DNA of 64,000 bases from Promethearchaeota archaeon (lineage in GTDB: Archaea; Asgardarchaeota; Lokiarchaeia; Sigyniarchaeales; SOKP01). The translations under genes were made by a program, and so were the position numbers. The stretch is from assembly GCA_019058245.1 (NCBI GenBank), contig JAHPZJ010000027.1, positions 10,344-74,343 of the forward strand. Reading direction: 5' to 3'. The notes beneath the pieces are model-generated. The model worked only from the letters and a program-made list of their open reading frames with translations, was not told the DNA's origin and searched no databases. Positions 6,172-19,970 of the stretch are shown here, piece by piece (the stretch's first letter is position 1; every line of letters begins with the position of its first letter).

Positions 6172-6990
6172 ATGATCGCTATGAACACCACTCGAAATCC
6201 AGATCAATCTAATAAAAAATTGCATATGCTCGGTTATGGGTTATTAAATATTTCAGATCTCAAGTCTGGTGGAAAACTTAATGTGACTTTTCAATATGGT
6301 ATAGGGGTATCGCTAATTCAAAATATTTTCGAATTATATAAAAATGAAATTGTCAGCAAAAAACAGGGAAATTCTATTGTTCCTTTAGAAGAATTTACAA
6401 TTTATATTCAGTATTTTAAAAATGGAGAAGAAAACATATCTGTAATAATATATATGGAAGAAAAGGAACCAAACGTACCTGTAAATTATCCAAAATTATA
6501 CTTTTTGTCGAAAAAAATCAATAAACAAATTCTTTCTGGGACACCCATACCAAAACTAAGAGATATTTTTAAATCTGAGATTGAGATTCCAAAATCTGAT
6601 GGGGTTATAGCAATATTCATTATTGGATCCACTGGAAGTCCATTTGTTTCAAAGATTAATAAAAGTCGTTCAAGTATAGCTGAGCATGAAGTTCACATAG
6701 GTGGATTTATTTCAGCTTTATTATCATTTTCAAATACAATTATCGGTGAGGAAACTGGCGCCAAGCTTAAAGAGATTAATTTTGGAAACCAACAATTTTA
6801 CGTCATATCAAAGAGTAATGTTATTTTTGCCTTTTTAGTTGAAAATATGAATTCATTACTTCAAAGATATATGTATCTTCTCACGGATGAATTTCTTTTC
6901 GATTTCCGCGACTATATAAAGGATTTTAATGGGGATGTTACTCCATTTAATGAATTCGAAAAGAAAATAAATCAATATTTTATAATTTAA
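6172..6990 (+). CDS. hypothetical protein; C-terminal domain paralogous to 62473..62862
   Basis: 272-aa ORF ending 18 nt before cheW. The C-terminal segment HIGGFISALLSFSNTI...LKEINFGNQQFYV...FNEFEKKI aligns by eye with LFGGLMSALNTIAETL...FQLSNMRFAI...FDDFEKEI of 62473..62862. Confidence 0.55.
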   Translation: MIAMNTTRNPDQSNKKLHMLGYGLLNISDLKSGGKLNVTFQYGIGVSLIQNIFELYKNEIVSKKQGNSIVPLEEFTIYIQYFKNGEENISVIIYMEEKEPNVPVNYPKLYFLSKKINKQILSGTPIPKLRDIFKSEIEIPKSDGVIAIFIIGSTGSPFVSKINKSRSSIAEHEVHIGGFISALLSFSNTIIGEETGAKLKEINFGNQQFYVISKSNVIFAFLVENMNSLLQRYMYLLTDEFLFDFRDYIKDFNGDVTPFNEFEKKINQYFII

Positions 6991-7008: not shown

Positions 7009-7542
7009 ATGAGTCAAAAACAAGAATATGAAGGAATAAATCAAGTGTCTATCCTCTCCTTCCAGATTGGATGGGAAGAGTTCTGCATTGATTTGAATGA
7101 TGTTAAGGAAATAATTCAAGCAGGGTTAGTAAGAAAATTGCCTAAAAGCTTAGATTACATAGATGGAATCTATAATTATAGAGGAGAAATTATTCATGTA
7201 ATTAACTTAAAGAAAAAACTAGAATTGGATCAATCTCTATTATATCAATCTCGAAATTCCTCATATAAACAAGATTTGAAATCTACGAAGAAATTCATCA
7301 TCATCCTAAAGATTGATAACAATTTAATTGGGGTTTATACAGATTCTATCCTTAGTATCGATCATATAAACCCTTCTGAGATAATAGGATTAAGTCCAAT
7401 CTTTCAGACCAGTGTTGCTATTGATTATATTAAAGGAATTATTAAATTCGAAGAAAGACCAAGAATTCTGCTTGATTTAAGTAAAATTTTCAATGATATT
7501 GATAAATTTAGAATTAAGCAAGATTTATCATCTTTAACATAA
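7009..7542 (+). CDS. cheW: chemotaxis coupling protein CheW
   Basis: 177-aa single CheW-like domain (SFQIGWEEFCIDLNDVKEI..., GIYNYRGEIIHVINLKK). Confidence 0.9.
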   Translation: MSQKQEYEGINQVSILSFQIGWEEFCIDLNDVKEIIQAGLVRKLPKSLDYIDGIYNYRGEIIHVINLKKKLELDQSLLYQSRNSSYKQDLKSTKKFIIILKIDNNLIGVYTDSILSIDHINPSEIIGLSPIFQTSVAIDYIKGIIKFEERPRILLDLSKIFNDIDKFRIKQDLSSLT

Positions 7543-7569
7543 AATCAAATAAAAATAGGAGTTGATAAT

Positions 7570-7956
7570 ATGGTAAAAAATGAAAAAAAGAAGGTTCTAA
7601 TAGTAGATGATGCTCAGTTTACGCGTAACATGCTTAAAAACATAATTAATAAAATTGAACAAATTGAAGTTGTAGGTGAAGCTTCAAATGGAGTAGAAGC
7701 AATCTCCTTATATAAAAAATTAAATCCAGACTTAGTTACTATGGATTTAGTAATGCCAGAAAAGGGTGGTATTGAAGCAACAGAGGAGATTCTGAAAATA
7801 AACCCAAAAGCAATAATTATTGTGGTTTCTGCACTAGGTCAAGAAGCTTTAGTTCTTGAAGCAGCAAAAAAAGGGGCAAAAGATTTCATTCAGAAGCCCT
7901 TCAAGAATGAGCAAATCTTAGAGGTAATGAACCGAATACTAAAATCTGGCGAGTAA
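7570..7956 (+). CDS. cheY: chemotaxis response regulator CheY
   Basis: 128-aa receiver domain with VLIVDD, DLVTMDLVMP and KPF; AGGAG lies upstream. Confidence 0.9.
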   Translation: MVKNEKKKVLIVDDAQFTRNMLKNIINKIEQIEVVGEASNGVEAISLYKKLNPDLVTMDLVMPEKGGIEATEEILKINPKAIIIVVSALGQEALVLEAAKKGAKDFIQKPFKNEQILEVMNRILKSGE

Positions 7957-8041
7957 ACTCACCAAGAAGAGTATTATGAATGCAATCATCAAATAAATAT
8001 AAAAAAAAGGAATTAAAATAATAAGGATATAAGGTGATTAT

Positions 8042-10117
8042 GTGTCATCTAAAGACGATATAAAACTTTTTATAAGTGAAGCTGAGGATTTGATTCAGAA
8101 GACGGAGGATGAAATTCTAACTCTGGAAGAAAATCCTAATAATTCTAAACCGATTAAAGAACTCTTCTTCACATTTCATACATTAAAGGGATTAACCGCA
8201 ATGGTTGGCTTTGACAATTTATCTAAGTTCTGCCATCATTTTGAATCATTTTTAGATAATGCTCAGAAGAATAAAGTTTCTAAAACGAAAAGAGATAATT
8301 TCATAGACATGCTATTTGAGAGTCTTGATGTGTTAAAAAATGTCTTAAATCAGGTAAAAAAAGGAGATATGAAAGATATTGATGCAAATTTTGTTGAAGA
8401 TATAAAAAATAGCTTTGAAAGTTTTGAAACTGAAGAATATGATATCACCTTTATTGAAGCTTTAAATTTAGAAGAAATTTCTAAATTACTTAATCAGAAT
8501 CAAAATAAATCATTCAAGATTTATATTCGTCTTGAAGACACCTGTGTTTTTAAAAAAGTAAGATTATTCATTATCTTTAGAGCATTAAATGAAAATGGTA
8601 AAATATGTTGGACTAATCCTGTTCCTGAGGAGTTAGAAAGAGCAACAATCAGAAATGATTTTGAAATATACTTTATCACTAAAAATAATAAAGAGAATAT
8701 TTTCCAGATTTTAGATGAGATCTTAGAAATAGAAAACATTGTTATTACACCAATAAAATCTGAAGAATTCAAGAATACAATTGCCGATCTCAAGGGAAAA
8801 TGGGAACTTCAAAAATCAGCTTCAATAAGTGATGATATAATTATTGAAGATTATGATGAAGAAGTTGATGTTGAAGAAATTGAGAGAGTTTCTCATATTA
8901 CAGAGGGTTATACAGATGGTACTGTTAAAATTATGAGTGTTAAAGTTAATATTGAATATCTAGAGGAACTAATGAATTATTTCGGAGAGTTGGTAATAAT
9001 GAAAAATCATATTAGTCAACTTTTAAAAGAAAAAGAAGATAGAACACTAGCAAGATTAATCGATAAAATGGATAAACCCTTTTTAGATATTCAAGAAATT
9101 CTTTTTAAATTAAAATTAGTTAGAGTTGAATCAACTTTCAGAAAATATAAACGCTTAGTTCGTGATGTGGCAAATGAAACAGGGAAAAAAATAAGACTAA
9201 TTTTAGAAGGAACTAATGTTGAAATCGATAGAAAAATTTTAGAAGAAATTAATTCTCCTCTAGTTCATTTACTTAGAAATGCAATTTATCATGGTATTGA
9301 ACCACCAAAAGAACGAATTAAAAAAGGTAAAGATGAATTTGGAATCTTAAAACTAAGAACATATAGAAGAGCAGGATCAATTTTTATAGAGGTCCAAGAT
9401 GATGGTGCTGGTATTAATTATGATAAAATAAGAGAACAGGTTGTGAATAAAGGATATTATGATATAGATGAGGCCAAAGAATTAACCAAAGAAGATTTAA
9501 ATCACTTTATTCTTTTACCTGGGTTTTCTACACTCTCGGATGCAGACCTTATTTCAGGGAGAGGTATGGGGTTGGCTATTGTAGCCGAGAGAATTAAGGA
9601 ATTGGGTGGTGATTTTAGCATCCATTCAGAAAAAGATATAGGTACGAAATTTACATTAGACGTACCCTTTACGAGGGCAATATTAAGAGCTCAATTAATC
9701 CAAATAGCTGATGATTTATTTGCAATTCCAACTGAAAATATAAAACAAATATATTTTTACAATCCTAACCAAGTTGAATACATTGAGGGAGAACAATATT
9801 ATAAAATAGATTCAAAAATAGTACCTTTAATTCATTTAAGTGACCATTTAAATATGGTAAATGAAAGTGAGACGAATTCTCATAAAAAAATCGCTATATG
9901 GTGCCAAAAAGATGAAGAAAATTCAGCAGTATTTGTTGCTGATAAACAACTTCAACAGTTGGATGTAGTTGTTAAACCTTTTAAATCTAATTTTTCTGAC
10001 TCTCGTGATATATTAGGTTCTACAATTACAGGTGAAGGAATTATTTGCCTAATAATTGATGTGTTGAGCATTATTACCTCTAAAACAAATGAAAAAATAA
10101 TTTCTAATTTAACATAA
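8042..10117 (+). CDS. cheA: chemotaxis histidine kinase CheA
   Basis: HPt (FHTLKG), N-box HLLRNAIYHGIE, G-boxes DDGAGI and GRGMGL, and a C-terminal CheW-like domain. GTG start follows AGGTGAT. Confidence 0.95.
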   Translation: MSSKDDIKLFISEAEDLIQKTEDEILTLEENPNNSKPIKELFFTFHTLKGLTAMVGFDNLSKFCHHFESFLDNAQKNKVSKTKRDNFIDMLFESLDVLKNVLNQVKKGDMKDIDANFVEDIKNSFESFETEEYDITFIEALNLEEISKLLNQNQNKSFKIYIRLEDTCVFKKVRLFIIFRALNENGKICWTNPVPEELERATIRNDFEIYFITKNNKENIFQILDEILEIENIVITPIKSEEFKNTIADLKGKWELQKSASISDDIIIEDYDEEVDVEEIERVSHITEGYTDGTVKIMSVKVNIEYLEELMNYFGELVIMKNHISQLLKEKEDRTLARLIDKMDKPFLDIQEILFKLKLVRVESTFRKYKRLVRDVANETGKKIRLILEGTNVEIDRKILEEINSPLVHLLRNAIYHGIEPPKERIKKGKDEFGILKLRTYRRAGSIFIEVQDDGAGINYDKIREQVVNKGYYDIDEAKELTKEDLNHFILLPGFSTLSDADLISGRGMGLAIVAERIKELGGDFSIHSEKDIGTKFTLDVPFTRAILRAQLIQIADDLFAIPTENIKQIYFYNPNQVEYIEGEQYYKIDSKIVPLIHLSDHLNMVNESETNSHKKIAIWCQKDEENSAVFVADKQLQQLDVVVKPFKSNFSDSRDILGSTITGEGIICLIIDVLSIITSKTNEKIISNLT

Positions 10118-10171: not shown

Positions 10172-12199
10172 ATGGGTTTTAAAAAAATTGATATTGACGA
10201 ATTAAAAACAAAAGCAAGCCCAACTTTTCTTGGTATACCTATCAGGGAAGGAGGTAAACTTATCCAAAAAAGCTATAGAGAAAAAAAAATTGAATCAAGT
10301 TACATGGGAACAAGCTCAGAAGTATTGATATTAAATGAAGAATTTTTGGAATATGATTATCAAAACGATGGAACAAGAAAAGGAGTTATAGGTAATGGAA
10401 ATATTTCAATTTTCAATAATTCTATTAAAGATAGAATCTGGGATGCAAATTTACAATTTTCTGGCTCACAGTTTAATAACCAGAAAGCCGAAAATAATCT
10501 TAATTTAGGTGTCTTTGAACCTAATTCAAATAAAGTATTGAAATATGAAATTATAAATTCTGAGGATTTGCCGGATTTAATAAATGTAACTGAAAGTATT
10601 GATAACCTTAATGAAGATATTGGAATCTTTAGAAATAGTTATGAGGATTTAGAATTAAGTAATCATGAAATCTTGGAAAAAAGTCAGGATAAAAATTATT
10701 TATTGTTATGGGGAAAAGAGAATAAGGTAAAATTTACAATTAACATTGCTAACGTATCATCATATACACTTGTTAATATTAAGTTTAAAAAATTATTTGC
10801 AAATGTTTTTTACGATTTGGAATTTAAGTGCGAAAAAAGTAAGGAATTTAAAGTTATTAGAAATTCTATAGAAAGTTCATTAAATAATATTAATCCAGGT
10901 GAAAGTATTGATATAGTTATTTATGCAAAAGTATTTCCCAAAAAGAAAGAAAATATCAAAACAGGAAATATTGAATTAACATTTAACTTATCAAATAGAG
11001 TAATTTCCGGAGTAACAATCGATCATTTCTCAGCATATTCTCATGCGATGCATGCCATTAAAAAAACGGAAAAGATTCACGAACCTAATAACTGGAAATG
11101 TTCTCTTATATTCGAAAACTTAAGTGATTTTTCATTAAAATTGAAATCTATCCAAATATTTGATAAAAATAAAAAAAATAAAATTCTGGATTTAGATTCT
11201 AGAACACTAAGAAAACAAGTAGTCAATCCTCATGGTAAATATAAAACAGATTCTTTTTATTTTGTTGATGAAAAGGAGCCAATATTTTCAAGAAAAGTTG
11301 AATATTCTATTGGTTACAAGACTGAAAAGAATTCAATGATTACTTCCAGATATGAAGATAATTTCTTTGTCATTGCTCATTCAACAACAAAAAAGAAATT
11401 ATCAGACGAAGAGATTAAATCATTTGAAGAGGCTTCAGTACATTCCCAAATAACAATCAGTAATCAAGGGACGATACCAATCAGGGGTCTACAAATTATA
11501 GAAAAAATACCTGAAGATTTTTTACCTACAGGAAATATTTCAGATTATACATTAAGTAAATCCTCGGGTAAATTAATAATTGATGATCTTGAATTAAAAA
11601 TAAAGCCTGATGATGAAGATTCTTCTCATGAACACACCATAGAATTAAATATCAATTTAAAAACCAGTAGTTTAAATTCAGTAATTGATGTGGATAATTT
11701 CTTAGAGTTAAAGTATCCTCTTAAAGCAGTAAACCCAGATTATAAAAGAGATTATAATTTTCCACTTAGAGTTTATATCTTTTACTCAAAATATAAGGAT
11801 TCTGATCGAAAAGAGTATTACATGATATCGGAAGATCTTTCTGATATGGATAAATCTAAAATAAGAATTACTCATAAAAGAAGAAAAGTTACTATTGGAA
11901 AACAGATTTATCCAGGAAGGAGCGCTAATGAATTTGCTATTTATATTATCGCAAAAAATGGTTCAAATATGAAAATGAATGATATAAATATTACAGATTC
12001 TTTTCCAGATTCATTTGAAATGATCTCCTCAAATGCAGAATATAAGCTCACTAAATCAAAGAAAAATGCTGAACAAAAAATATCCTTTACAGTTGATACT
12101 CTTTTACCTTACCAAGAAAAAGAGATAATGTATTATTTAAAAAATATAACTGAAAAAGAGATAAAATCATCAGAATTAGAGTCATTTTTTGTTGGATAA
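10172..12199 (+). CDS. hypothetical 675-aa protein inside the che operon
   Basis: Long ORF with a GGAGG SD and no signal peptide or TM segment. Repeated segments (INIANVSSYTLVNIKF, ITISNQGTIPIRGLQII, YIIAKNGSNMKMNDINITDSFP) resemble CARDB/DUF11-type beta-sandwich strands; this is inference. Confidence 0.65.
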   Translation: MGFKKIDIDELKTKASPTFLGIPIREGGKLIQKSYREKKIESSYMGTSSEVLILNEEFLEYDYQNDGTRKGVIGNGNISIFNNSIKDRIWDANLQFSGSQFNNQKAENNLNLGVFEPNSNKVLKYEIINSEDLPDLINVTESIDNLNEDIGIFRNSYEDLELSNHEILEKSQDKNYLLLWGKENKVKFTINIANVSSYTLVNIKFKKLFANVFYDLEFKCEKSKEFKVIRNSIESSLNNINPGESIDIVIYAKVFPKKKENIKTGNIELTFNLSNRVISGVTIDHFSAYSHAMHAIKKTEKIHEPNNWKCSLIFENLSDFSLKLKSIQIFDKNKKNKILDLDSRTLRKQVVNPHGKYKTDSFYFVDEKEPIFSRKVEYSIGYKTEKNSMITSRYEDNFFVIAHSTTKKKLSDEEIKSFEEASVHSQITISNQGTIPIRGLQIIEKIPEDFLPTGNISDYTLSKSSGKLIIDDLELKIKPDDEDSSHEHTIELNINLKTSSLNSVIDVDNFLELKYPLKAVNPDYKRDYNFPLRVYIFYSKYKDSDRKEYYMISEDLSDMDKSKIRITHKRRKVTIGKQIYPGRSANEFAIYIIAKNGSNMKMNDINITDSFPDSFEMISSNAEYKLTKSKKNAEQKISFTVDTLLPYQEKEIMYYLKNITEKEIKSSELESFFVG

Positions 12200-12237
12200 T
12201 AAAAAAATAATTAAGATAAAAATTAGGAGGAAGAAAT

Positions 12238-13080
12238 ATGAAACTACAATATTATGAAATGATGGATGATAAATCTAAAAAATATTTATTATATCTCATC
12301 GAACAAGTCTTGCCCCAATTCACTGTAAGTGAACTTAAACTTTTTTTGGAAGATTTTTCTAATAACCTTAAAAATGGAAAAAAGTCTTCAAAATCAGCTA
12401 AAAATTATGTTGAAATAGGAAATGATGCAGGAAAATTAGCTGATTTATCAAACTTAACCATAGAAGAGTTAAAATTAATGTTCCAAATTTATATAAGCCG
12501 AGAAAAAAATGATAAATTTAGTATTAAGTGGCGGTTTTATCAATATCTTAAATACATGTTAGATTTAGACCTAAAATCAGTTAAAGTTAACCAAGATCTT
12601 AATCCAGACTCATTAATTGATTTGATTGTTGAAACCGTAGAAAAAGAAGTAATTCTTATATTATGTTATGATGTTTTAAGTATAGACATTTATAATAAAG
12701 CTATAATTAAGATAAATGAATTTGCAAAGGAAGAAAATTTAATTCCTGATAGAATTATTTTTGCTGTGGGTAAATCATTTCGTAATATACCAATTGATAT
12801 ACCTATAAAAATTATCAACAAGGAGCTTATACCTGAATTATGGATTGAATGGATTGAAGAGAACTGTCCCTTCAATAGAGAAGATTTAATTATTGTAAAT
12901 GATAGAGAACTAAAACTCGCGGGTTTTAACTTTACTAATATAGAGGATATGCTGAATTATATATTTAGATATTCCAATGGTGGGCAAATTACCATATATA
13001 GACAGGTCGATTTTTTTACAGAAGTTGATGAGGATGAACCCGAATTGGAATTAATTTGGAAAGGAATTATGTTAAAATAA
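12238..13080 (+). CDS. hypothetical 280-aa protein inside the che operon
   Basis: ORF with an AGGAGG SD and no recognisable motif. It is not CheR, because no SAM-binding motif is present. Confidence 0.6.
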   Translation: MKLQYYEMMDDKSKKYLLYLIEQVLPQFTVSELKLFLEDFSNNLKNGKKSSKSAKNYVEIGNDAGKLADLSNLTIEELKLMFQIYISREKNDKFSIKWRFYQYLKYMLDLDLKSVKVNQDLNPDSLIDLIVETVEKEVILILCYDVLSIDIYNKAIIKINEFAKEENLIPDRIIFAVGKSFRNIPIDIPIKIINKELIPELWIEWIEENCPFNREDLIIVNDRELKLAGFNFTNIEDMLNYIFRYSNGGQITIYRQVDFFTEVDEDEPELELIWKGIMLK

Positions 13081-13121: not shown

Positions 13122-15113
13122 ATGTTAGAAACTGAATTTCAAAATAACGAATTTAAAGATACAATAAACGTAGTAATTATTCAAGTTCTTGATGAAAGAT
13201 ATCTTATAGAAGTTAAAAATATAAAGGAAATTTATGTTCCAGGGGATAATATCATTCCCGTTCCTTTAACAGATAAATCCATACTTGGTATTATTAATAT
13301 AAGAGGAGAAATTTATTCAATTATCTCATTAAGACATAATATATCTGATGATAATGATATTGATTATGGTTTATCTAACACATCACGGATTTTACTATTA
13401 GAATATGAAGACTTAAAAATAGCTTTATTAGTAGATTCCGTAATTGGCGTTAAAAATATTCCCCTTTCAATCTTCAAAAAACAAGGTACTATTGTAAAAA
13501 CAAGTATTGATTTCAGATTGATAAAATTAACTGGAATTTTTCAGGATGAAGCACTTATATTATTAGACCTACAAGCTTTAATTCAACCTTATTTGAAATC
13601 TCAGGTTAAGAAAGTAGAGAAAAAGATAGAACAAAAACCTAAAGTCCTTGAACGTGCTAAAATCCACCCTAAAGTGAAGCCAAAAACAACACCAGAACCT
13701 AGCAGCATTGAATCAGCTGTTATAATCCCTCAAAAAACACCATCTGAAATGCAGCTGACTAAGATTCCAGTAGAAAAAAAACGAAAACAAGTATCATTAT
13801 CGAATGAACAGCAAGATATTCTTAGAGAGATTGGTAATATAGGAACTGGAAACGCTGTTACAGCTTTATCACGACTAGTTAAAAAGAAAATAGATGTTAC
13901 TCTCACAGATGTAGGTATTATACCTTTAAATGAATTACCAAAACAATTTGGTGGTGCTAAAGAGAAAGTATGCGGGATTTTTTGTCATATAGATAAACCA
14001 TCTCAAGCAACTATTTTAAATATTTTTGAAATGCAACCACTAATGAAATTGATAGCACAATTAGCGGGGCCTCAATCTAAGATAGATCCTAAAAAGGTGA
14101 AATCTAAAAAAGATCTTGATGATTTTGCTATTTCCACTATTGTAGAGATGGGTAATATTATGGCAGGGCATTATGCCTCTGCATTAGCTGATTTATTAGA
14201 AACAAAAATGCTGATTGATATTCCGGAATTTACAATGAGTAAAGCTGGAGAAATTGGAGAATTTCTTTCTAAAGAATTAGAATCTATTGCGGAGTATTTT
14301 ATTATAATAAAAACTTCAGTAAACGTAGCGGATTTGAAACTGACAGGTATGTTCTTCTTTATCCCTGATCTTGAAACGTTAAAGACATTTTTCAATAAAT
14401 TAGGTATTGAACATGATATACCTGTCAAGATAATGACAACTAAAAGAGCAACTGAAATCCCAAGTATCGATAAGATAAAGCTTTCAGAAGTGCAAAGAGA
14501 TGCGTTACAAGAAGTCGGAAATATTGGTGCTGGAAATGCCGCTAACGCCTTAGCTCAAATGATTAACAAAAGAGTAGATATAAATATTCCATCAGTAGAG
14601 ATGGTTGAATTGGATGAGTATGCAAATACTATGAGTAATAAAAATGAGACCCTTTTGGTCGCTTGGAGTAATGTTACTGGTAAAACTCGAGCTACTGTCC
14701 TGACATTGTTTAATATAAAAGATGCTATTGATATAACCTCAATAATAGTAGATGATAGAGATAAAAAACAAATCGATCTTAGAAAAAAAATTAGTAAAGC
14801 GTCTGATTTTCCTGAGCTTTATCATAGTGCAATATCTGAACTAGGGCATATATTAGGTAGCCATTATGTAAGTGCAATTGGGGATTTATTAGGTATAAGA
14901 TTAATGACAGAACCTCCAGATATGAGCGTGGACACGGGACGTCAATTATTTAAAATTTTAAAAGAGGAAATTGGATTACTAAAAAAATTATCACTGGTTA
15001 TTACTACAAATGTGATTATCACAGACATTAAAGTTACTGGTACTTTCTTGTTCATTCCCAACTTAGAAACATTACAAGAATTATTGGAGGCACTTTTAAA
15101 GTTTTATTCTTAA
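13122..15113 (+). CDS. CheW-CheC-CheC fusion protein (CheY-P phosphatase-like)
   Basis: The N-terminal CheW-like domain (IIQVLDERYLIEVKNIKEI..GIINIRGEIYSIISL) is followed by a Lys/Pro-rich linker. Two CheC-type modules follow, carrying ExxN sites: REIGNIGTGNAVTALS, VEMGNIMAGHYASALA, QEVGNIGAGNAANALA, and a degenerate SELGHILGSHYVSAI. Confidence 0.8.
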   Translation: MLETEFQNNEFKDTINVVIIQVLDERYLIEVKNIKEIYVPGDNIIPVPLTDKSILGIINIRGEIYSIISLRHNISDDNDIDYGLSNTSRILLLEYEDLKIALLVDSVIGVKNIPLSIFKKQGTIVKTSIDFRLIKLTGIFQDEALILLDLQALIQPYLKSQVKKVEKKIEQKPKVLERAKIHPKVKPKTTPEPSSIESAVIIPQKTPSEMQLTKIPVEKKRKQVSLSNEQQDILREIGNIGTGNAVTALSRLVKKKIDVTLTDVGIIPLNELPKQFGGAKEKVCGIFCHIDKPSQATILNIFEMQPLMKLIAQLAGPQSKIDPKKVKSKKDLDDFAISTIVEMGNIMAGHYASALADLLETKMLIDIPEFTMSKAGEIGEFLSKELESIAEYFIIIKTSVNVADLKLTGMFFFIPDLETLKTFFNKLGIEHDIPVKIMTTKRATEIPSIDKIKLSEVQRDALQEVGNIGAGNAANALAQMINKRVDINIPSVEMVELDEYANTMSNKNETLLVAWSNVTGKTRATVLTLFNIKDAIDITSIIVDDRDKKQIDLRKKISKASDFPELYHSAISELGHILGSHYVSAIGDLLGIRLMTEPPDMSVDTGRQLFKILKEEIGLLKKLSLVITTNVIITDIKVTGTFLFIPNLETLQELLEALLKFYS

Positions 15114-15234: not shown

Positions 15235-15789
15235 ATGTTAAAAAGCGGTTATTACGACTTTATTTATGAAGTACAAGGTGAAACACTTAAACTAAGGCCC
15301 GAGAAGATGTTTGATCCCAATTGCGTGTATTTAATAGTAGATAAGGAGTTAAAACTTATTTGGATCTGGGCGGGTAGTCATTCTCGATTATTTCATCGAT
15401 ATATGGCAGCTAATTTTGCAGGAAAACTCAAGACAAAAAAGAAATTTTATAATTTTAAATATGAAGTCGTTAAAGAAGGTATTGAACCTCCTGAATTTCA
15501 TATAATATACAAAGAGATTAAAGAACAAAATTCTACTATAACCTATCCTGGGCAATCTAGATATATTGTTAAACAAACTCAAGCCCCAAGTAGTTATGGG
15601 GGAACTTCATCTTTAGATACAAGTTTAGAATCTAAAATAATTCTAGATGGTCGAGAATTATCAAAATCTGTCAAATCTCGTATTAAAAAAATTTTATCTG
15701 AGATAAAAGAAATTCAATCACATATAACTTATTCAATTAATCATATCCAACAACGTTTTGCCGAAATTGAAAAATTATTAGAAAATTAG
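15235..15789 (+). CDS. gelsolin-like domain protein with C-terminal coiled coil
   Basis: The N-terminal 95 aa follow the gelsolin-repeat pattern: CVYLIVDKELKLIWIWAGSHS...AANFAGKL...EVVKEGIEPPEF. Compare the remembered gelsolin G1 pattern AYVILKT..LHYWLGNECS...QHREVQGFESATF. Confidence 0.6.
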   Translation: MLKSGYYDFIYEVQGETLKLRPEKMFDPNCVYLIVDKELKLIWIWAGSHSRLFHRYMAANFAGKLKTKKKFYNFKYEVVKEGIEPPEFHIIYKEIKEQNSTITYPGQSRYIVKQTQAPSSYGGTSSLDTSLESKIILDGRELSKSVKSRIKKILSEIKEIQSHITYSINHIQQRFAEIEKLLEN

Positions 15790-16062: not shown

Positions 16063-17205
16063 ATGTCGATTAAGGTTCTTTTAGCGGAAGATTCAAGCTA
16101 TCAGAGAAAGCTAATAACTGATATGCTATTATCAAGCAAGGAGATTTCTAAAGTAGAAGTTGCTAAAAATGGAAAAGAAGCTATTAAAAAAATTGAGTCA
16201 GTAAATCCAGATGTTTTAATTTTAGATTTAATAATGCCTAAAATAGACGGAATAACGGTGTTCAAATTCCTTTCAGAACATTATCCAATACCTACAATAA
16301 TATTTACAGCTAAATCTCCAGAAACATTAGATGATTCTGTTCAAGCTTTACTTTTAGGAGCATTTGATTTTATTGTAAAACCAAAAGGACTATGGAAAGA
16401 AGAACTCCCCAAATTAAAAGAAAAATTAATTTTTAGTACGCTTTATGCGAGTAAAATAAAAAAGACCTATGAAAAACGAAATTTATTAATAAAGAAATCT
16501 TTCGAGAAACCTCTTAATTTGATAACTGAACAATATCAAATAATTAAAAAGCCTAAACCAAAGATTGAAAAAGCTCTGAAAATAACACCCTTACTTGAAG
16601 GTAAATTAACACCCAATGCAATAGTTATAGGAACTAGTACTGGTGGTCCTAGAACCTTAAAAACAATATTAAAAGATATTCCAAAAGATTTTTCATCACC
16701 AATTTTAATGGTTCAACATTTAGATGAATTCTTTATGAAAGAATTCTCAAAATCATTAAATCAGGTCAGTAAAATTGAAGTTAAAATTCCTGTTAATGGG
16801 GAAAAAATTCTTCCAGGAATTGCTTATCTTAGTCCAGGAGAAAAACATATGGAAGTTGCCCAAAGAAACAAGATACAATACATTAAAATACTTGATGGGG
16901 AGCCTGTTAATTTTTGTAAGCCTTCGGTGGATGTTTTATTCCTTTCAGCAGCAAAAGTATATAAGGATCGAATTTTGGGGATCTTACTAACAGGTTTAGG
17001 ACAAGATGGTGCAGCTGGTTTAGAAGCAATTAAAAAAGGAGGAGGCCAAACAATTGCAGAATCAGAACAAACATGTGTGGTATATGGTATGCCTAAAGCG
17101 GCGGTAAAGAGAGGAGCTGCAAATTTAATCTTACCTAATTACCAAATTAAAGAACATATGTTAAAATTTGCTAGAAAAAATAAGGGTAATCCAATATATT
17201 CATAA
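16063..17205 (+). CDS. cheB: chemotaxis methylesterase/deamidase CheB (REC + esterase)
   Basis: Receiver domain (VLLAEDS, DVLILDLIMP) plus an esterase domain with GTSTGGP, MVQHL and GQDGAAGL. Confidence 0.9.
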   Translation: MSIKVLLAEDSSYQRKLITDMLLSSKEISKVEVAKNGKEAIKKIESVNPDVLILDLIMPKIDGITVFKFLSEHYPIPTIIFTAKSPETLDDSVQALLLGAFDFIVKPKGLWKEELPKLKEKLIFSTLYASKIKKTYEKRNLLIKKSFEKPLNLITEQYQIIKKPKPKIEKALKITPLLEGKLTPNAIVIGTSTGGPRTLKTILKDIPKDFSSPILMVQHLDEFFMKEFSKSLNQVSKIEVKIPVNGEKILPGIAYLSPGEKHMEVAQRNKIQYIKILDGEPVNFCKPSVDVLFLSAAKVYKDRILGILLTGLGQDGAAGLEAIKKGGGQTIAESEQTCVVYGMPKAAVKRGAANLILPNYQIKEHMLKFARKNKGNPIYS

Positions 17206-17226
17206 GGTTATAACCAAAACTTTAAG

Positions 17227-17775
17227 GTGAAAAAGATAAAACCCCATGGATGTATTGAAAAACCAAACACTGATGGAAAAATTATCTTACCAATAGGGCA
17301 TTATGCTATTGTAAATTGTAGAAATAAACCAAATAATATTTATACAAAAATATCAATTTATGGATTAGGGTCTTGTATTGCTCTGATACTTTTTGATAGT
17401 AAAAATAAAGTAAGTGGAATGTCTCATATATTACTTCCAAAATGTCAACTAAACAAAAAAATTGAATATCCTCACAAATATGCTGATCTCTCAGCAAATC
17501 TGTTACTTCAAGAATTATTAAACCGTGGAGCAATTAAGAAAAATATAAAAGCTGTGATTGTTGGGGGTTCAAAGATTTTTGAATTAGATGAAAATGGTAT
17601 AGGGATTAATAATATCAAAGCAATTAAAAATGAATTAAAAAAATTAGAAATTAAGATTATAGGAGAAAATACAGGAGGATCTGAAGGAAGAGTTGTCATA
17701 TTTGACACTAAAGATTTCTCAGTCTATGTTAGATTAACAAGAGAATCAAATCTTCAAAAAATAAAGTATTCATGA
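17227..17775 (+). CDS. cheD: chemoreceptor glutamine deamidase CheD
   Basis: 182 aa with GLGSCIALILFD and SHILLP motifs; GTG start. Confidence 0.85.
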   Translation: MKKIKPHGCIEKPNTDGKIILPIGHYAIVNCRNKPNNIYTKISIYGLGSCIALILFDSKNKVSGMSHILLPKCQLNKKIEYPHKYADLSANLLLQELLNRGAIKKNIKAVIVGGSKIFELDENGIGINNIKAIKNELKKLEIKIIGENTGGSEGRVVIFDTKDFSVYVRLTRESNLQKIKYS

Positions 17776-17816
17776 TATAATAATTTTAAAAAGATTTAAA
17801 ATTGAGAGGATTAAAA

Positions 17817-18470
17817 ATGAAAAAGCCAATTGATATAAAATTAACACAAGAACAATTAGACATTTTAAAAGAATTAGGTAATATCGGTTCTGGGCATGCA
17901 ATAACAGCACTTTCCAAATTACTTAATATTAAAATCGATGTTTCATTGACATCCATAGATATTGTTCCTTTTTGGAAAGTTCCCGAACTATTTAATAAGT
18001 CTGCAATTGATATGGTTGGAATCTATTCTAAGATTCCCTTTAAATCAGATTTAGCAATTATCCAATTATTTACAAAAGTATCGATAGTAAGTCTAATCAA
18101 TATTTTATCTGATAATGACAAAATTATGGTTGATGATATAAAAACTATTGATGATTTGGATGATTTTTCAGTAAGTATTATAAGTGAAATTGGAAATATC
18201 TTATCTGGTCATTATACTAATGCTTTAGCTGATATGCTATCAATTAAACTGGTACCAAATGTTCCAAAAATCGCATTAGATTCTTTGAATGCTATTTTAG
18301 AAACCTTAATTGCTAAATTTTCTCAATTGTCAGATTATATGATTTTAATAAATACAAAATTAATAGTTTTAGATGTAAATATAGAAGGTATAATCTGTCT
18401 TATCCCTTCAATCAATATCTTAAAAAATCTATTTAATATTCTAAACTTAAAATACGATCTAAATCTCTAG
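17817..18470 (+). CDS. cheC: CheY-P phosphatase CheC
   Basis: Two ExxN sites (LKELGNIGSGHAITALS and ISEIGNILSGHYTNALA). The ORF track starts at TTG 17802; the ATG at 17817 follows GAGAGGA and is preferred. Confidence 0.85.
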   Translation: MKKPIDIKLTQEQLDILKELGNIGSGHAITALSKLLNIKIDVSLTSIDIVPFWKVPELFNKSAIDMVGIYSKIPFKSDLAIIQLFTKVSIVSLINILSDNDKIMVDDIKTIDDLDDFSVSIISEIGNILSGHYTNALADMLSIKLVPNVPKIALDSLNAILETLIAKFSQLSDYMILINTKLIVLDVNIEGIICLIPSINILKNLFNILNLKYDLNL

Positions 18471-18611
18471 GAAAGATATTTGATGATATGTACAAATAAA
18501 CAAGCTTAATTTATTTTCAGTGAAATTTTATTTTTGGGTTTTAGTAACATATATATTTTCTAACTTTACTATTTATTAGAATAATTAATTAAATATAATT
18601 AGGAGAGTTAT

Positions 18612-19970
18612 TTGACGATTGATGTGGTTATTGCTGATGACAGCGCATTTTTAAGAAAAAATATAGCAAATATTCTAAAAGAACATGATTCAATTGATAT
18701 TACTGGATTTGCGAAGGATGGAGAAGAAGCTGTTAAACTTGTTAAAGAAATTAGCCCAGATGTCTTAGTTTTAGATTTAGTAATGCCTAAAATGAATGGA
18801 TTGGATGCATTCAAACTAATAATGGAGGAAAATCCCACGCCTACTGTTGTCCTTTCAGCTATTAGTCCAAAAAAACTGGACTCTTCCATTCAAGCTCTTT
18901 TAATGGGTGCTTTTGATTATATCATAAAACCAGGGGGTATTGGAGCAAAACCATTGCCAAGATTTCGTGAAGAATTACTCGCTAAAGTATTGTTAGCGTC
19001 TCAATCACAAATTAAAAAAATATTCAGAAAAGGAGAAATTATATTAAAAAAAGGAAGATCTCTCCGCCAGGAGATGGTTAATCGAATTTTTGATTTTGGA
19101 CAATATCTTAACAGATTAGAACCTATTCAAGAAATTGAGGAAGAACAAAAATACGATTCTTTCGAAATTATGAAGGTTAAGGCAATCCTCAAGGATGAAA
19201 CTAAGGGTAAATTAGCAGAGTCAGCATCGAGTGAAGAAATTAATAAGGCAATAATAAGTACATCAGAAACAAGTGAAGAAAGGATAGAACAGATATCAAG
19301 AAAATCAGCATTACTAAAAAAATCAACAAATGCACAATTTAAAAAGAGTAAAACAGTAAATATTCCTGATCTCTCCCCTATTAAAGGAACTACAATAAGT
19401 TCAAATATAATTGTTATAGGTGCTAGCGTTGGAGGACCTAGAACAATAACAACAATATTAAAAGAAATTCCAAGAAATTTTAAGGCACCAATCTTAATCG
19501 TTCAGCATTTATCTTCTCATTTTACAGATGCTTTTGCAGATAATTTAGATATGGAATGTGAACTCAAAATAAAAGTAGCTAATAATGGAGATTATATTAA
19601 ACCTGGTTATGTTTATCTTGCCCCTGGAGATGTGCATATGGAAATCTCTGTTGAAAATAATACACCTCTAATCAAAGTTTATAAAGGAAGTCCTGTTAAC
19701 TTTTGCATGCCTTCTATAGATGTATTATTTTTTTCAGCAGCAAAAGTTTATAGAAATCATGCTATGGGAATAATTCTAACTGGAATGGGCTCAGATGGTG
19801 TAGAAGGTCTGGGAGCAATTAAAAGAGTGGGTGGAAAGACAATAGCAGAAGATAAAAGTACTTCTATACTTTATGCTATGCCAAAATTTGCCTCTGAGAA
19901 AGGATATGCTAAACTTGTATTACCAAATTATAATATAAAAGATGAAATGATAAAATTCATTGGAAATTAG
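18612..19970 (+). CDS. cheB: second CheB paralogue with a long inter-domain linker
   Basis: Receiver domain (VVIADDS, DVLVLDLVMP), a long charged Ser/Glu/Lys-rich linker, then an esterase domain with GASVGGP, IVQHL and GSDGVEGL. TTG start follows AGGAG. Confidence 0.85.
   Translation: MTIDVVIADDSAFLRKNIANILKEHDSIDITGFAKDGEEAVKLVKEISPDVLVLDLVMPKMNGLDAFKLIMEENPTPTVVLSAISPKKLDSSIQALLMGAFDYIIKPGGIGAKPLPRFREELLAKVLLASQSQIKKIFRKGEIILKKGRSLRQEMVNRIFDFGQYLNRLEPIQEIEEEQKYDSFEIMKVKAILKDETKGKLAESASSEEINKAIISTSETSEERIEQISRKSALLKKSTNAQFKKSKTVNIPDLSPIKGTTISSNIIVIGASVGGPRTITTILKEIPRNFKAPILIVQHLSSHFTDAFADNLDMECELKIKVANNGDYIKPGYVYLAPGDVHMEISVENNTPLIKVYKGSPVNFCMPSIDVLFFSAAKVYRNHAMGIILTGMGSDGVEGLGAIKRVGGKTIAEDKSTSILYAMPKFASEKGYAKLVLPNYNIKDEMIKFIGN

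What the first reader, a model, noticed from the sequence alone, without database searches (positions are those of the whole stretch)
13122..15113. CheW-CheC-CheC fusion protein
A single 663-aa ORF joins an N-terminal CheW-type domain to two complete CheC-type phosphatase modules through a Lys/Pro-rich linker. Three of the four half-sites keep the E-x2-N signature (EIGN, EMGN, EVGN), and the fourth reads ELGH. I know CheW fused to a receiver (CheV) and CheC-type modules in FliY and CheX. I do not recall a CheW-CheC2 architecture. It would tether CheY-P phosphatase activity directly to the CheA/receptor array. A separate stand-alone cheC (17817..18470) is also present.
Basis: partly seen in the sequence, partly recalled or inferred. 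Interest (0 to 1): 0.6.

Follow-up and report, generated by a model that had tools for sequence, protein, structure and literature searches.

The report
Asgard CheW fused to two CheC modules
This is a real, strongly conserved gene of Loki-type Asgard archaea that joins the chemoreceptor-array adaptor CheW to two CheC-type CheY-P phosphatase modules. It most likely tethers the signal "off" enzyme to the sensory array, in cells where no archaellum or pilus machinery was found.

Summary
ORF 13122..15113 (+) encodes one 663-aa protein. It has a CheW domain (aa 14-160), a disordered Lys/Pro-rich tether (161-222), CheC module M1 (223-433), a short linker, and CheC module M2 (449-663).

The fusion is not an assembly artefact. 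More than 100 listed independently assembled homologues share the architecture. In 22 of 24 species-representative genomes the gene is matched over essentially its full length.

The half-site pattern is conserved:
- M1 site 2 and M2 site 1 carry the full CheC motif (D/S-x3-E-x2-N-x22-P).
- M1 site 1 keeps Glu and Asn but has an invariant Thr in place of Pro.
- M2 site 2 reads E-x2-H, and the His is invariant.

The CheW domain keeps the equivalents of E. coli E38, R62, G57 and G63. The best reading is an auxiliary array adaptor that holds CheY-P phosphatase next to CheA.

New context:
- A family at 24-31% identity in other Asgard-type che operons has the same architecture.
- Both families sit directly after the same two unknown genes.
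- Independent CheW-CheC (Methanocella) and P2-CheC fusions exist.
- No archaellin, CheF or T2SSF platform protein was found in five carrier genomes.

Databases list the layout, but no paper I found describes it. I rate it a new variant of a known kind, of moderate interest.

The parts
13122..15113 (+). Whole gene: CheW-linker-CheC(M1)-linker-CheC(M2), 663 aa
   Evidence: Conserved full length in other genomes.
13161..13601 (+). CheW domain (aa 14-160). E36, R61, G56 and G62 are the equivalents of E. coli CheW E38, R62, G57 and G63.
   Evidence: Pfam CheW E 2.3e-19. Foldseek to 8c5v_E TMt 0.81 and 2ch4_W TMt 0.84. Alignment to E. coli CheW. E36, R61 and G56 are invariant and G62 is at least 90% conserved in 45 homologues.
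13602..13787 (+). Lys/Pro-rich disordered tether (aa 161-222)
   Evidence: 15 Lys and 8 Pro in 62 residues. pLDDT below 50. Only 34% mean identity, against 68-82% in the domains.
13788..14420 (+). CheC module M1 (aa 223-433). Site 1 is D232-x3-E236-x2-N239, with T262 where CheC has Pro. Site 2 is S338-x3-E342-x2-N345-x22-P368, the full motif.
   Evidence: phmmer to 1xkr_A E 4.1e-21. Foldseek to 1xkr TMt 0.86. Motif table. In the tree it groups with stand-alone Asgard CheC (support 100/98).
14421..14465 (+). Short variable linker (aa 434-448)
   Evidence: pLDDT below 50. 14% mean identity. It carries long Ala/Lys/Pro-rich inserts in some homologues.
14466..15110 (+). CheC module M2 (aa 449-663). 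Site 1 is D460-x3-E464-x2-N467-x22-P490, the full motif and invariant. Site 2 is S569-x3-E573-x2-H576-x22-P599, where His replaces the catalytic Asn and is invariant.
   Evidence: It is the most conserved segment, with 82% mean identity. It forms a separate, well-supported clade (100/99).
10172..12199 (+). Co-conserved 675-aa unknown with DUF11-type beta-sandwich repeats. It lies upstream of the fusion in both the near and the distant family.
   Evidence: Pfam DUF11 E 6.6e-6. Synteny. blastp to the L033 and L034 homologues E 1e-15 to 1e-19.
12238..13080 (+). Co-conserved 280-aa unknown, immediately upstream of the fusion in both families
   Evidence: No Pfam or NCBIfam hit. blastp to the L033 and L034 homologues E 1e-10 to 1e-23. 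AF2 pLDDT 81, pTM 0.81. Only weak resemblance to nuclease-like folds.
15235..15789 (+). Gelsolin-like 184-aa gene directly downstream. Conserved in the near family.
   Evidence: Pfam Gelsolin E 0.01, below the cut-off. Synteny.
7009..10117 (+). Stand-alone cheW (7009..7542), cheY (7570..7956) and cheA (8042..10117): the presumed partners and substrate
   Evidence: Pfam. Conserved order.
16063..19970 (+). cheB (16063..17205), cheD (17227..17775), stand-alone cheC (17802..18470) and a second cheB (18612..19970)
   Evidence: Pfam. Conserved order.

Best explanation
One gene encodes an auxiliary chemosensory-array adaptor that carries its own CheY-P phosphatase. The N-terminal CheW domain inserts into the MCP/CheA/CheW lattice alongside the separate single-domain CheW. 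A roughly 60-residue disordered Lys/Pro-rich tether lets two CheC modules sweep the space under the array. There they dephosphorylate CheY-P close to where CheA makes it. Catalysis would use the two complete sites (E342/N345 in M1 and E464/N467 in M2) and probably the near-complete site E236/N239. The fourth site (E573/H576) is likely not catalytic, yet it is conserved, so it probably serves a binding role. What is shown: a single conserved ORF, the domain identities and folds, the motif pattern and the operon context. What is inferred: docking to the array, phosphatase activity and its substrate.
For: Domain identity: Pfam and NCBIfam, PDB sequence hits to CheC 1xkr/2f9z and to CheW, and Foldseek TMt 0.86 to CheC and 0.81-0.84 to CheW in solved array complexes. 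Not an artefact: more than 100 listed homologues with the same Pfam architecture, 24 species-representative loci, and 15 of 301 phylum genomes with no internal stops. CheW competence: E36, R61, G56 and G62 align with E. coli E38, R62, G57 and G63 and are invariant or nearly so. Catalytic motifs: M1 site 2 and M2 site 1 keep D/S-x3-E-x2-N-x22-P in 45/45 near and 13/13 distant homologues, apart from N to H at M1 site 2 in 2 of the 45 near homologues. Selection: the fusion averages 75% identity, level with CheA and second only to CheY (91%) in the operon, while both linkers drift at 34% and 14%. Context: it always lies in a che operon with cheW, cheY, cheA, cheB, cheD and cheC. The distant-family loci show no separate cheC in the part of the operon recovered, so there the fusion may supply the CheC function. 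Convergence: an independently derived CheW-CheC in Methanocella and P2-CheC fusions in Asgard show that attaching CheC to a kinase- or array-docking domain arose repeatedly. Putative chemoreceptor arrays were seen by cryo-ET in Lokiarchaeum ossiferum (PMC9834061). Kinase-proximal phosphatase placement is an established principle (E. coli CheZ with CheA-short; from my own knowledge).
Against: No biochemical or localisation data exist for any member. Stand-alone CheC enzymes are weak phosphatases unless CheD activates them (own knowledge), so activity here may also be low. One half-site is degenerate and another lacks the motif Pro. The operon already has a stand-alone CheW and a stand-alone CheC, so the fusion is not simply needed for either basic function. 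The AF2 model gives no confident inter-domain geometry (pTM 0.38). The tight linkage to two unknown proteins, and the lack of any known motility output, hint at a role beyond signal termination.
Confidence: 0.6

Rival explanations
1. Output adaptor rather than terminator. The CheC modules share a fold with the FliM middle domain. They would act mainly as CheY-P docking sites. Together with the co-conserved DUF11-type protein, the 280-aa protein and (in this family) the gelsolin-like protein, they would couple the array to a non-archaellar effector.
For: The three-gene block (DUF11-type protein, ~270-aa protein, CheW-CheC-CheC) is conserved between families only 24-31% identical. No archaellin (PF01917), CheF (PF04283) or T2SSF platform protein (PF00482) was found in five carrier genomes, while the control genomes were positive. 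Foldseek also matches FliM middle domains, TMt about 0.75. The invariant non-catalytic His site and the very high conservation of M2 suggest a binding surface. A gelsolin-like gene lies directly downstream.
Against: Two complete catalytic motifs are strictly conserved, which a pure docking role does not require. FliM itself lacks these residues (own knowledge). The neighbours have no known function and no interaction has been shown. The gelsolin-like gene is absent from the two distant-family loci. Gene linkage alone is weak evidence. The own genome is only 76% complete, and the 'chromosome' record CP070831 contains a run of 100 N.
Confidence: 0.2
2. Array-resident CheD regulator. As in the Bacillus subtilis CheC-CheD-CheY-P feedback, the tethered CheC modules would chiefly bind and release the deamidase CheD at the receptors. 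That would tune adaptation rather than CheY-P lifetime.
For: cheD is present in every operon that carries the fusion. M1 belongs to the same clade as the cheD-adjacent stand-alone CheC (100/98). The distant-family loci have cheD but show no separate cheC. The closest solved structure includes the CheC-CheD complex 2f9z.
Against: I did not test conservation of the CheD-binding surface. In this window a stand-alone CheC sits right next to cheD and is the more obvious CheD partner. This role is compatible with the phosphatase role rather than exclusive of it.
Confidence: 0.15
3. Assembly or gene-calling artefact that joins a cheW gene to one or two cheC genes.
For: The window comes from a metagenome-assembled genome (31 contigs, 76% complete).
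Against: The same continuous ORF is found in more than 100 listed independently assembled sequences from NCBI, JGI, ENA and Logan. Full-length matches occur in 22 of 24 species representatives. Matches in 15 genomes have no internal stops. A distant family has the same architecture.
Confidence: 0.02

Closest known systems
Class I CheC CheY-P phosphatase (Thermotoga maritima CheC, PDB 1XKR; CheC-CheD complex 2F9Z)
   Same: Each module has the CheC fold (TMt 0.86-0.89, ~30% identity) and the internally duplicated two-half-site layout. The complete D/S-x3-E-x2-N-x22-P motif is present in M1 site 2 and M2 site 1. It sits in an operon with cheD.
   Different: There are two modules in tandem, fused behind a CheW domain. 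One half-site is degenerate (His for Asn) and one lacks the motif Pro. M2 forms its own clade, found only fused to CheW or P2 apart from two short single-module sequences at its base.
E. coli CheZ recruited to receptor arrays by CheA-short (functional analogue; own knowledge)
   Same: The proposed principle is the same: the CheY-P phosphatase is held at the kinase/receptor array.
   Different: The phosphatase family is unrelated, and here the attachment is covalent through a CheW domain rather than by non-covalent binding to a CheA isoform. Localisation has not been shown here.
CheV (CheW-REC auxiliary adaptor)
   Same: It is a CheW-domain protein that coexists with a plain CheW and carries an extra signalling domain into the array.
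   Different: The appended domains are CheC phosphatase modules, not a receiver. No Response_reg hit was found.
FliY (CheC-like phosphatase of the flagellar switch, PDB 4HYN)
   Same: It is a CheC-type module localised by fusion to a structural docking domain. Foldseek TMt 0.72-0.74.
   Different: The C-terminal FliN/SpoA domain is missing (no PF01052 hit). The docking domain is CheW (array), not FliN (motor). The NCBIfam FliY score of 98.9 is far below the cut-off of 218.
Methanocella CheW-CheC (single-module) proteins, e.g. Methanocella sp. CWC-04 and MCL-LM, annotated 'CheW' or 'hypothetical'
   Same: An N-terminal CheW domain is fused to a CheC module.
   Different: They have one module, not two. 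Their CheC part belongs to the euryarchaeal and bacterial-type CheC clade, so the fusion arose independently. In MCL-LM the gene lies outside any che operon.
Survey of CheW-like domain architectures (Vass et al., bioRxiv 10.1101/2022.05.07.491037)
   Same: It catalogues proteins containing PF01584.
   Different: Its 16 architectures cover about 94% of CheW-like domains and are all of the CheA, CheW or CheV lineages. CheW-CheC is not among them.

Membership tests
CheW-like domain (PF01584) | HMM score above the Pfam gathering threshold | tested here: met
   69.8 bits against 23.5, aa 17-155.
CheW-like domain (PF01584) | Double beta-barrel CheW fold | tested here: met
   AF2 model pLDDT about 63-87 over most of this domain. 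Foldseek to 8c5v_E TMt 0.81 and 2ch4_W TMt 0.84.
CheW-like domain (PF01584) | Conserved Glu-Arg pair and glycines of functional CheW (E. coli E38, R62, G57, G63) | tested here: met
   E36, R61, G56 and G62 align to them. E36, R61 and G56 are invariant and G62 is at least 90% conserved in 45 homologues.
CheW-like domain (PF01584) | Binds CheA P5 and receptor tips in an array | not testable with these tools
   Needs binding assays, complex modelling or cryo-ET.
CheC-type CheY-P phosphatase (PF04509, class I CheC) | HMM score above the Pfam gathering threshold | tested here: met
   128.3 bits against 22. Two complete modules by module HMM, E 1.5e-100 and 1.9e-97. The NCBIfam equivalog CheC_Thtogales scores 220.7, below its cut-off of 250.
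CheC-type CheY-P phosphatase (PF04509, class I CheC) | CheC alpha/beta fold with internal pseudo-twofold symmetry | tested here: met
   Foldseek to 1xkr E 5.8e-14, TMt 0.86. Both modules show the same order of secondary-structure elements.
CheC-type CheY-P phosphatase (PF04509, class I CheC) | Active-site motif D/S-x3-E-x2-N-x22-P in each half-site | tested here: inconclusive
   Complete in 2 of 4 half-sites (M1 site 2, M2 site 1). M1 site 1 has Glu and Asn but Thr for Pro, as do six of the eight Asgard-type stand-alone CheCs aligned. M2 site 2 has His for Asn.
CheC-type CheY-P phosphatase (PF04509, class I CheC) | Accelerates CheY-P dephosphorylation; stimulated by CheD | not testable with these tools
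   Needs an enzyme assay.
FliY | C-terminal FliN/SpoA (PF01052) domain and motor association | tested here: not met
   No PF01052 hit. NCBIfam FliY scores 98.9 against a cut-off of 218.
CheX | Single active site per subunit, CheX-type topology, best match to PF13690 | tested here: not met
   PF13690 scores 34.9 bits with no stretch passing on its own, and it lies under a much stronger CheC match. Foldseek to CheX 1xko gives TMt 0.60, against 0.86 for CheC.
CheV | CheW domain plus receiver (REC) domain | tested here: not met
   No Response_reg hit in P0001.

The most novel reading that the evidence does not exclude
The CheW-CheC-CheC protein would be the hub of an Asgard-specific output module. 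Through its CheW domain it would sit in the chemoreceptor array. Through its CheC modules, in particular the conserved non-catalytic His site of M2, it would bind CheY-P. It would also recruit the two co-conserved unknown proteins (the DUF11-type protein and the 280-aa protein) and, in this family, the gelsolin-like protein. Bacterial-type chemosensing would then steer something other than an archaellum or pilus, possibly the actin-based cell architecture of these archaea.
Probability: 0.12. Interest if true: 0.85.

Novelty: new variant of a known kind. Interest (0 to 1): 0.5.

Why it matters
Where the CheY-P phosphatase sits shapes how a chemotaxis pathway responds. Until now the array-tethered solution has been known only for CheZ-type enzymes. 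Here a CheC-type enzyme appears to be attached covalently to the array adaptor. Fusions of CheC to CheW arose at least twice (Asgard and Methanocella), and a P2-CheC variant also exists. The carriers are Loki-type Asgard archaea, in which I found no archaellin, CheF or type-IV-filament platform protein, so what their Che pathway controls is an open question. This protein and the two unknown genes that always precede it are specific, clonable candidates for addressing that question.

Tried and rejected
1. Assembly or frameshift artefact: rejected on comparative grounds.

2. Literature search for the architecture. None of the 20 best-ranked of 27 hits held 'CheW-CheC', 'CheC-CheW' or 'CheW-CheC-CheC'; every listed hit came from the unrelated term 'chewc'. 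Searches on Asgard plus Che genes found only gene lists. The Lokiarchaeum ossiferum paper lists cheA/B/C/D/R/W/Y and putative arrays but not the fusion. My first search was wasted because word-start matching made 'chec' match 'check'.

3. Filing the protein as FliY, CheX or CheV: rejected (see the membership tests).

4. Function of the co-conserved 280-aa protein. The AF2 model is good (pTM 0.81), but Foldseek gave no match at E <= 0.001. There were only weak similarities to PD-(D/E)xK-type nuclease domains at TM 0.2-0.3, so I draw no conclusion.

5. The idea that the downstream small gene is gelsolin-like in all families: rejected. In the two distant-family loci the small downstream genes have no blastp similarity to 15235..15789.

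6. Taking CP070831 as a gap-free reference: its locus holds a run of 100 N upstream of the fusion, and the upstream che genes are missing there.
Full report
**The observation**

The window holds a single open reading frame at 13122..15113 (+) of 663 codons. A GAGGT motif lies about 8 nt upstream of its ATG. Pfam finds a CheW-like domain at aa 17-155 (E 2.3e-19) and CheC repeats (E 9.9e-38). NCBIfam's CheC model matches in two stretches, the best at aa 226-429. A module HMM that I built finds two complete CheC modules, at aa 220-433 and 449-663.

The linker (aa 161-222) has 15 Lys and 8 Pro in 62 residues. A stand-alone cheC is present at 17802..18470.

**Not an artefact**

A search of 5.8 billion clustered proteins found 208 relatives. 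All but one of the 120 listed (a partial record) carry the same CheW+CheC Pfam architecture, at 57-93% identity. They come from independent NCBI, JGI, ENA and Logan assemblies, and where named they are labelled as Asgard archaea (Promethearchaeota, Lokiarchaeia and others) with the name 'chemotaxis protein CheC'.

In the species-representative genome collection, 24 loci encode it. In 22 of them the match covers essentially the whole protein. In a sample of 301 genomes of the phylum, it occurs without internal stops in 15. All 15 belong to one GTDB family, in 4 of 70 genera, and it is present in about half the listed species of the window's own genus. The comparative evidence makes a false join very unlikely.

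**Anatomy and structure**

An AlphaFold2 model built on 45 homologues has mean pLDDT 68. It shows three folded domains, with disordered segments at aa 161-222 and 434-448 and no confident inter-domain packing (pTM 0.38).

- Foldseek against the PDB matches T. maritima CheC (1xkr, E 5.8e-14, TMt 0.86) and the CheC-CheD complex (2f9z).
- It matches a haloarchaeal CheC-like protein and FliY more weakly.
- The N-terminal domain matches CheW from solved array complexes (8c5v_E TMt 0.81; 2ch4_W TMt 0.84).
- Sequence search of the PDB agrees.

**The CheW domain**

Aligned to E. coli CheW, residues E36, R61, G56 and G62 correspond to E38, R62, G57 and G63. From my own knowledge, E38 and R62 form the conserved salt-bridge pair, and these glycines are needed for CheA and receptor binding. 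E36, R61 and G56 are invariant and G62 is at least 90% conserved across 45 homologues. The domain therefore looks like a working scaffold domain and not a relic.

**The four half-sites**

Positions were compared with the CheC motif D/S-x3-E-x2-N-x22-P in 45 near-family and 13 distant-family proteins.

| Half-site | Residues in this protein | State | Conservation |
|---|---|---|---|
| M1 site 1 | D232, E236, N239, T262 | Glu and Asn kept; Thr in place of Pro | Thr invariant in the near family; six of eight Asgard-type stand-alone CheCs, including this window's, also have Thr |
| M1 site 2 | S338, E342, N345, P368 | Full motif | Complete in both families; N to H in 2 of 45 near-family proteins |
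| M2 site 1 | D460, E464, N467, P490 | Full motif | Invariant in the near family; Glu, Asn and Pro invariant in the distant family |
| M2 site 2 | S569, E573, H576, P599 | Degenerate: His for Asn | His invariant in the near family; S/N/E/Q and almost never Pro (1 of 13) in the distant family |

So there are two canonical sites, one near-canonical site and one degenerate site. The degenerate site is nevertheless under strong constraint in this family.

**Conservation**

Across 13 loci with the complete operon, the fusion averages 75% identity. That is level with CheA (75%) and below only CheY (91%). It is above the stand-alone CheW (71%), CheC (64%) and CheD (64%). Within the protein, M2 is the most conserved segment (82%), followed by M1 (74%) and CheW (68%). 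The two linkers drift freely at 34% and 14%. This is the pattern expected for folded functional domains joined by flexible tethers.

**Context**

The gene order is conserved across the loci:

1. a 272-aa unknown
2. cheW
3. cheY
4. cheA
5. a 675-aa protein with DUF11-type repeats
6. a 280-aa unknown
7. the fusion
8. a 184-aa gelsolin-like protein
9. cheB
10. cheD
11. cheC
12. a second cheB

The genome is 3.09 Mb in 31 contigs and 76% complete. It has ten MCP signalling-domain genes elsewhere.

Six-frame HMM searches found no archaellin (PF01917), no CheF (PF04283) and no T2SSF-type platform protein (PF00482). This held in the window's genome and in four other carrier genomes, while the control genomes scored as expected. 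Two caveats apply: the genomes are incomplete or gapped, and divergent archaellins might escape the model. A 2026 survey reports archaellum components in some Asgard genomes, including L. ossiferum (PMC13705601).

**A deeper family and related fusions**

An exhaustive search of 1.84 billion cluster representatives found further 650-760-aa proteins at 24-31% identity with the same CheW-CheC-CheC architecture. Those that carry a name are again labelled Promethearchaeota.

Two of their loci show this order: MCP, cheW, cheY, cheB, cheA, cheD, a 959-1026-aa DUF11-type protein, a 255-273-aa unknown, then the fusion (followed by cheR in one of them). Arf/Ras-type GTPase genes lie nearby. The large protein and the ~270-aa protein are homologous to the window's 675-aa and 280-aa genes (blastp E 1e-15 to 1e-19 and 1e-10 to 1e-23). 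This three-gene block is therefore older than the split between the two families. The gelsolin-like gene is not part of it in those two loci.

A maximum-likelihood tree of 101 CheC modules gives the following:

- Near-family M1 groups with the stand-alone Asgard CheCs, including this window's (support 100/98). Distant-family M1 is its sister (90/75).
- Near-family M2 and distant-family M2 each form well-supported clades (100/99). They are neighbours in the unrooted tree.
- This fits one ancient CheW-M1-M2 origin, but the tree does not prove it.

The same searches uncovered other fusions:

- Single-module CheW-CheC proteins (379-542 aa) and P2-CheC proteins, in which the CheY-binding P2 domain of CheA is fused to an M2-like module. 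The named ones are from Lokiarchaeia or Promethearchaeota.
- One CheW-CheC group belongs to Methanocella, including isolate genomes. There it is annotated 'CheW' or 'hypothetical'.
- The Methanocella CheC part falls in the euryarchaeal and bacterial-type CheC clade, so that fusion is independent. In Methanocella sp. MCL-LM the gene lies outside any che operon.

**Mechanism**

The best-supported reading is an auxiliary array adaptor carrying a tethered CheY-P phosphatase. The CheW domain docks in the receptor/CheA/CheW lattice. The ~60-residue tether lets M1 and M2 act on CheY-P where it is produced.

This is the CheC-family counterpart of E. coli CheZ held at the array by CheA-short. In layout it resembles CheV, a CheW domain plus an extra signalling domain (own knowledge). 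Repeated independent attachment of CheC to CheW or P2 domains argues that the proximity is selected for. Docking and catalysis remain inferred.

Two non-exclusive rivals remain:

- A CheY-P-binding output hub, working with the co-conserved unknown proteins. The lack of any known motility output, the conserved non-catalytic His site and the old gene linkage favour this reading.
- An array-resident regulator of CheD.

**Novelty**

The open literature I could search does not describe the architecture. The L. ossiferum paper lists che genes and reports putative arrays but does not mention a fusion. The broad survey of CheW-domain architectures covers 16 CheA, CheW and CheV types, and CheW-CheC is not among them.

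The proteins are in public databases under generic names. The underlying ideas, auxiliary CheW fusions and phosphatase localisation, are established. I therefore rate this a new variant of a known kind. Its interest is moderate, and is raised by the Asgard context and the unknown output of these Che systems.

**Earlier notes of this scan**

Earlier notes had already flagged the gelsolin-like neighbour, the two unknown genes and the cluster as a whole. One later check priced the 'Che steers actin' reading at about 12/100. I used these notes as leads only. They tempered the probability I give the bold reading.

Noticed in passing
window 10172..13080; L033 6338..9994; L034 6064..9981: The DUF11-type large protein and the ~270-aa unknown always sit directly upstream of the CheW-CheC-CheC gene. 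This holds even in a family only 24-31% identical, so the three genes form an old conserved block of unknown function.
   Followed up: partly
window 12238..13080: The 280-aa unknown folds confidently (pLDDT 81, pTM 0.81). It has no significant PDB neighbour, only weak similarity to PD-(D/E)xK-type nuclease domains (Can2, Card1, restriction enzymes). Invariant D128, R182, E204 and D216 might be a remnant of such a site.
   Followed up: partly
P0133, P0136, P0142 (Promethearchaeota/Lokiarchaeota proteins); G277:C67:36750-37463: P2-CheC fusions exist: in P0133, a CheA-type P2 (CheY-binding) domain is joined to an M2-like CheC module. P0136 and P0142 cluster with it in the tree. In G277, a 396-aa ORF with an M2-like module coexists with the full CheW-CheC-CheC gene.
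   Followed up: partly
L035 9001..10314 (Methanocella sp. MCL-LM, CP187259.1): An independently evolved single-module CheW-CheC fusion occurs in Methanocella. In this complete genome it lies outside any che operon.
   Followed up: partly
whole genome G000 and the genomes of L018, L004, L012 and L022: No archaellin (PF01917), CheF (PF04283) or T2SSF platform protein (PF00482) was detected, although there is a full che operon and ten MCP genes. The output of this Che system is unknown.
   Followed up: partly
window 15235..15789: The 184-aa gene directly downstream has a weak Gelsolin-repeat match (E 0.01, below the cut-off). It is syntenic in all near-family loci that extend that far, but absent from the two distant-family loci.
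   Followed up: partly
window 6172..6990; L033 13025..13432; L034 12072..12536: The first gene of the operon (272 aa) and the small genes after the fusion in the distant loci share a 'GF(I/F)SA(L/I)..F(S/A)' motif that may mark a Roadblock/longin-type fold. No blastp similarity was detected between them.
   Followed up: no
alignment A1, linker 2 (P0061, P0072): Some homologues carry long Ala/Lys/Pro-rich low-complexity inserts between the two CheC modules. The spacing between M1 and M2 is therefore not constrained.
   Followed up: no
L018 1..8000 (CP070831.1): This record is labelled 'chromosome', yet it has a run of 100 N upstream of the fusion. It also lacks cheW, cheY, cheA and the two unknown genes at that place, which probably reflects a scaffolding join.
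   Followed up: partly
window 18612..19970: A second CheB (452 aa) with a much longer REC-esterase linker ends the cluster. It is conserved in most loci.
   Followed up: no
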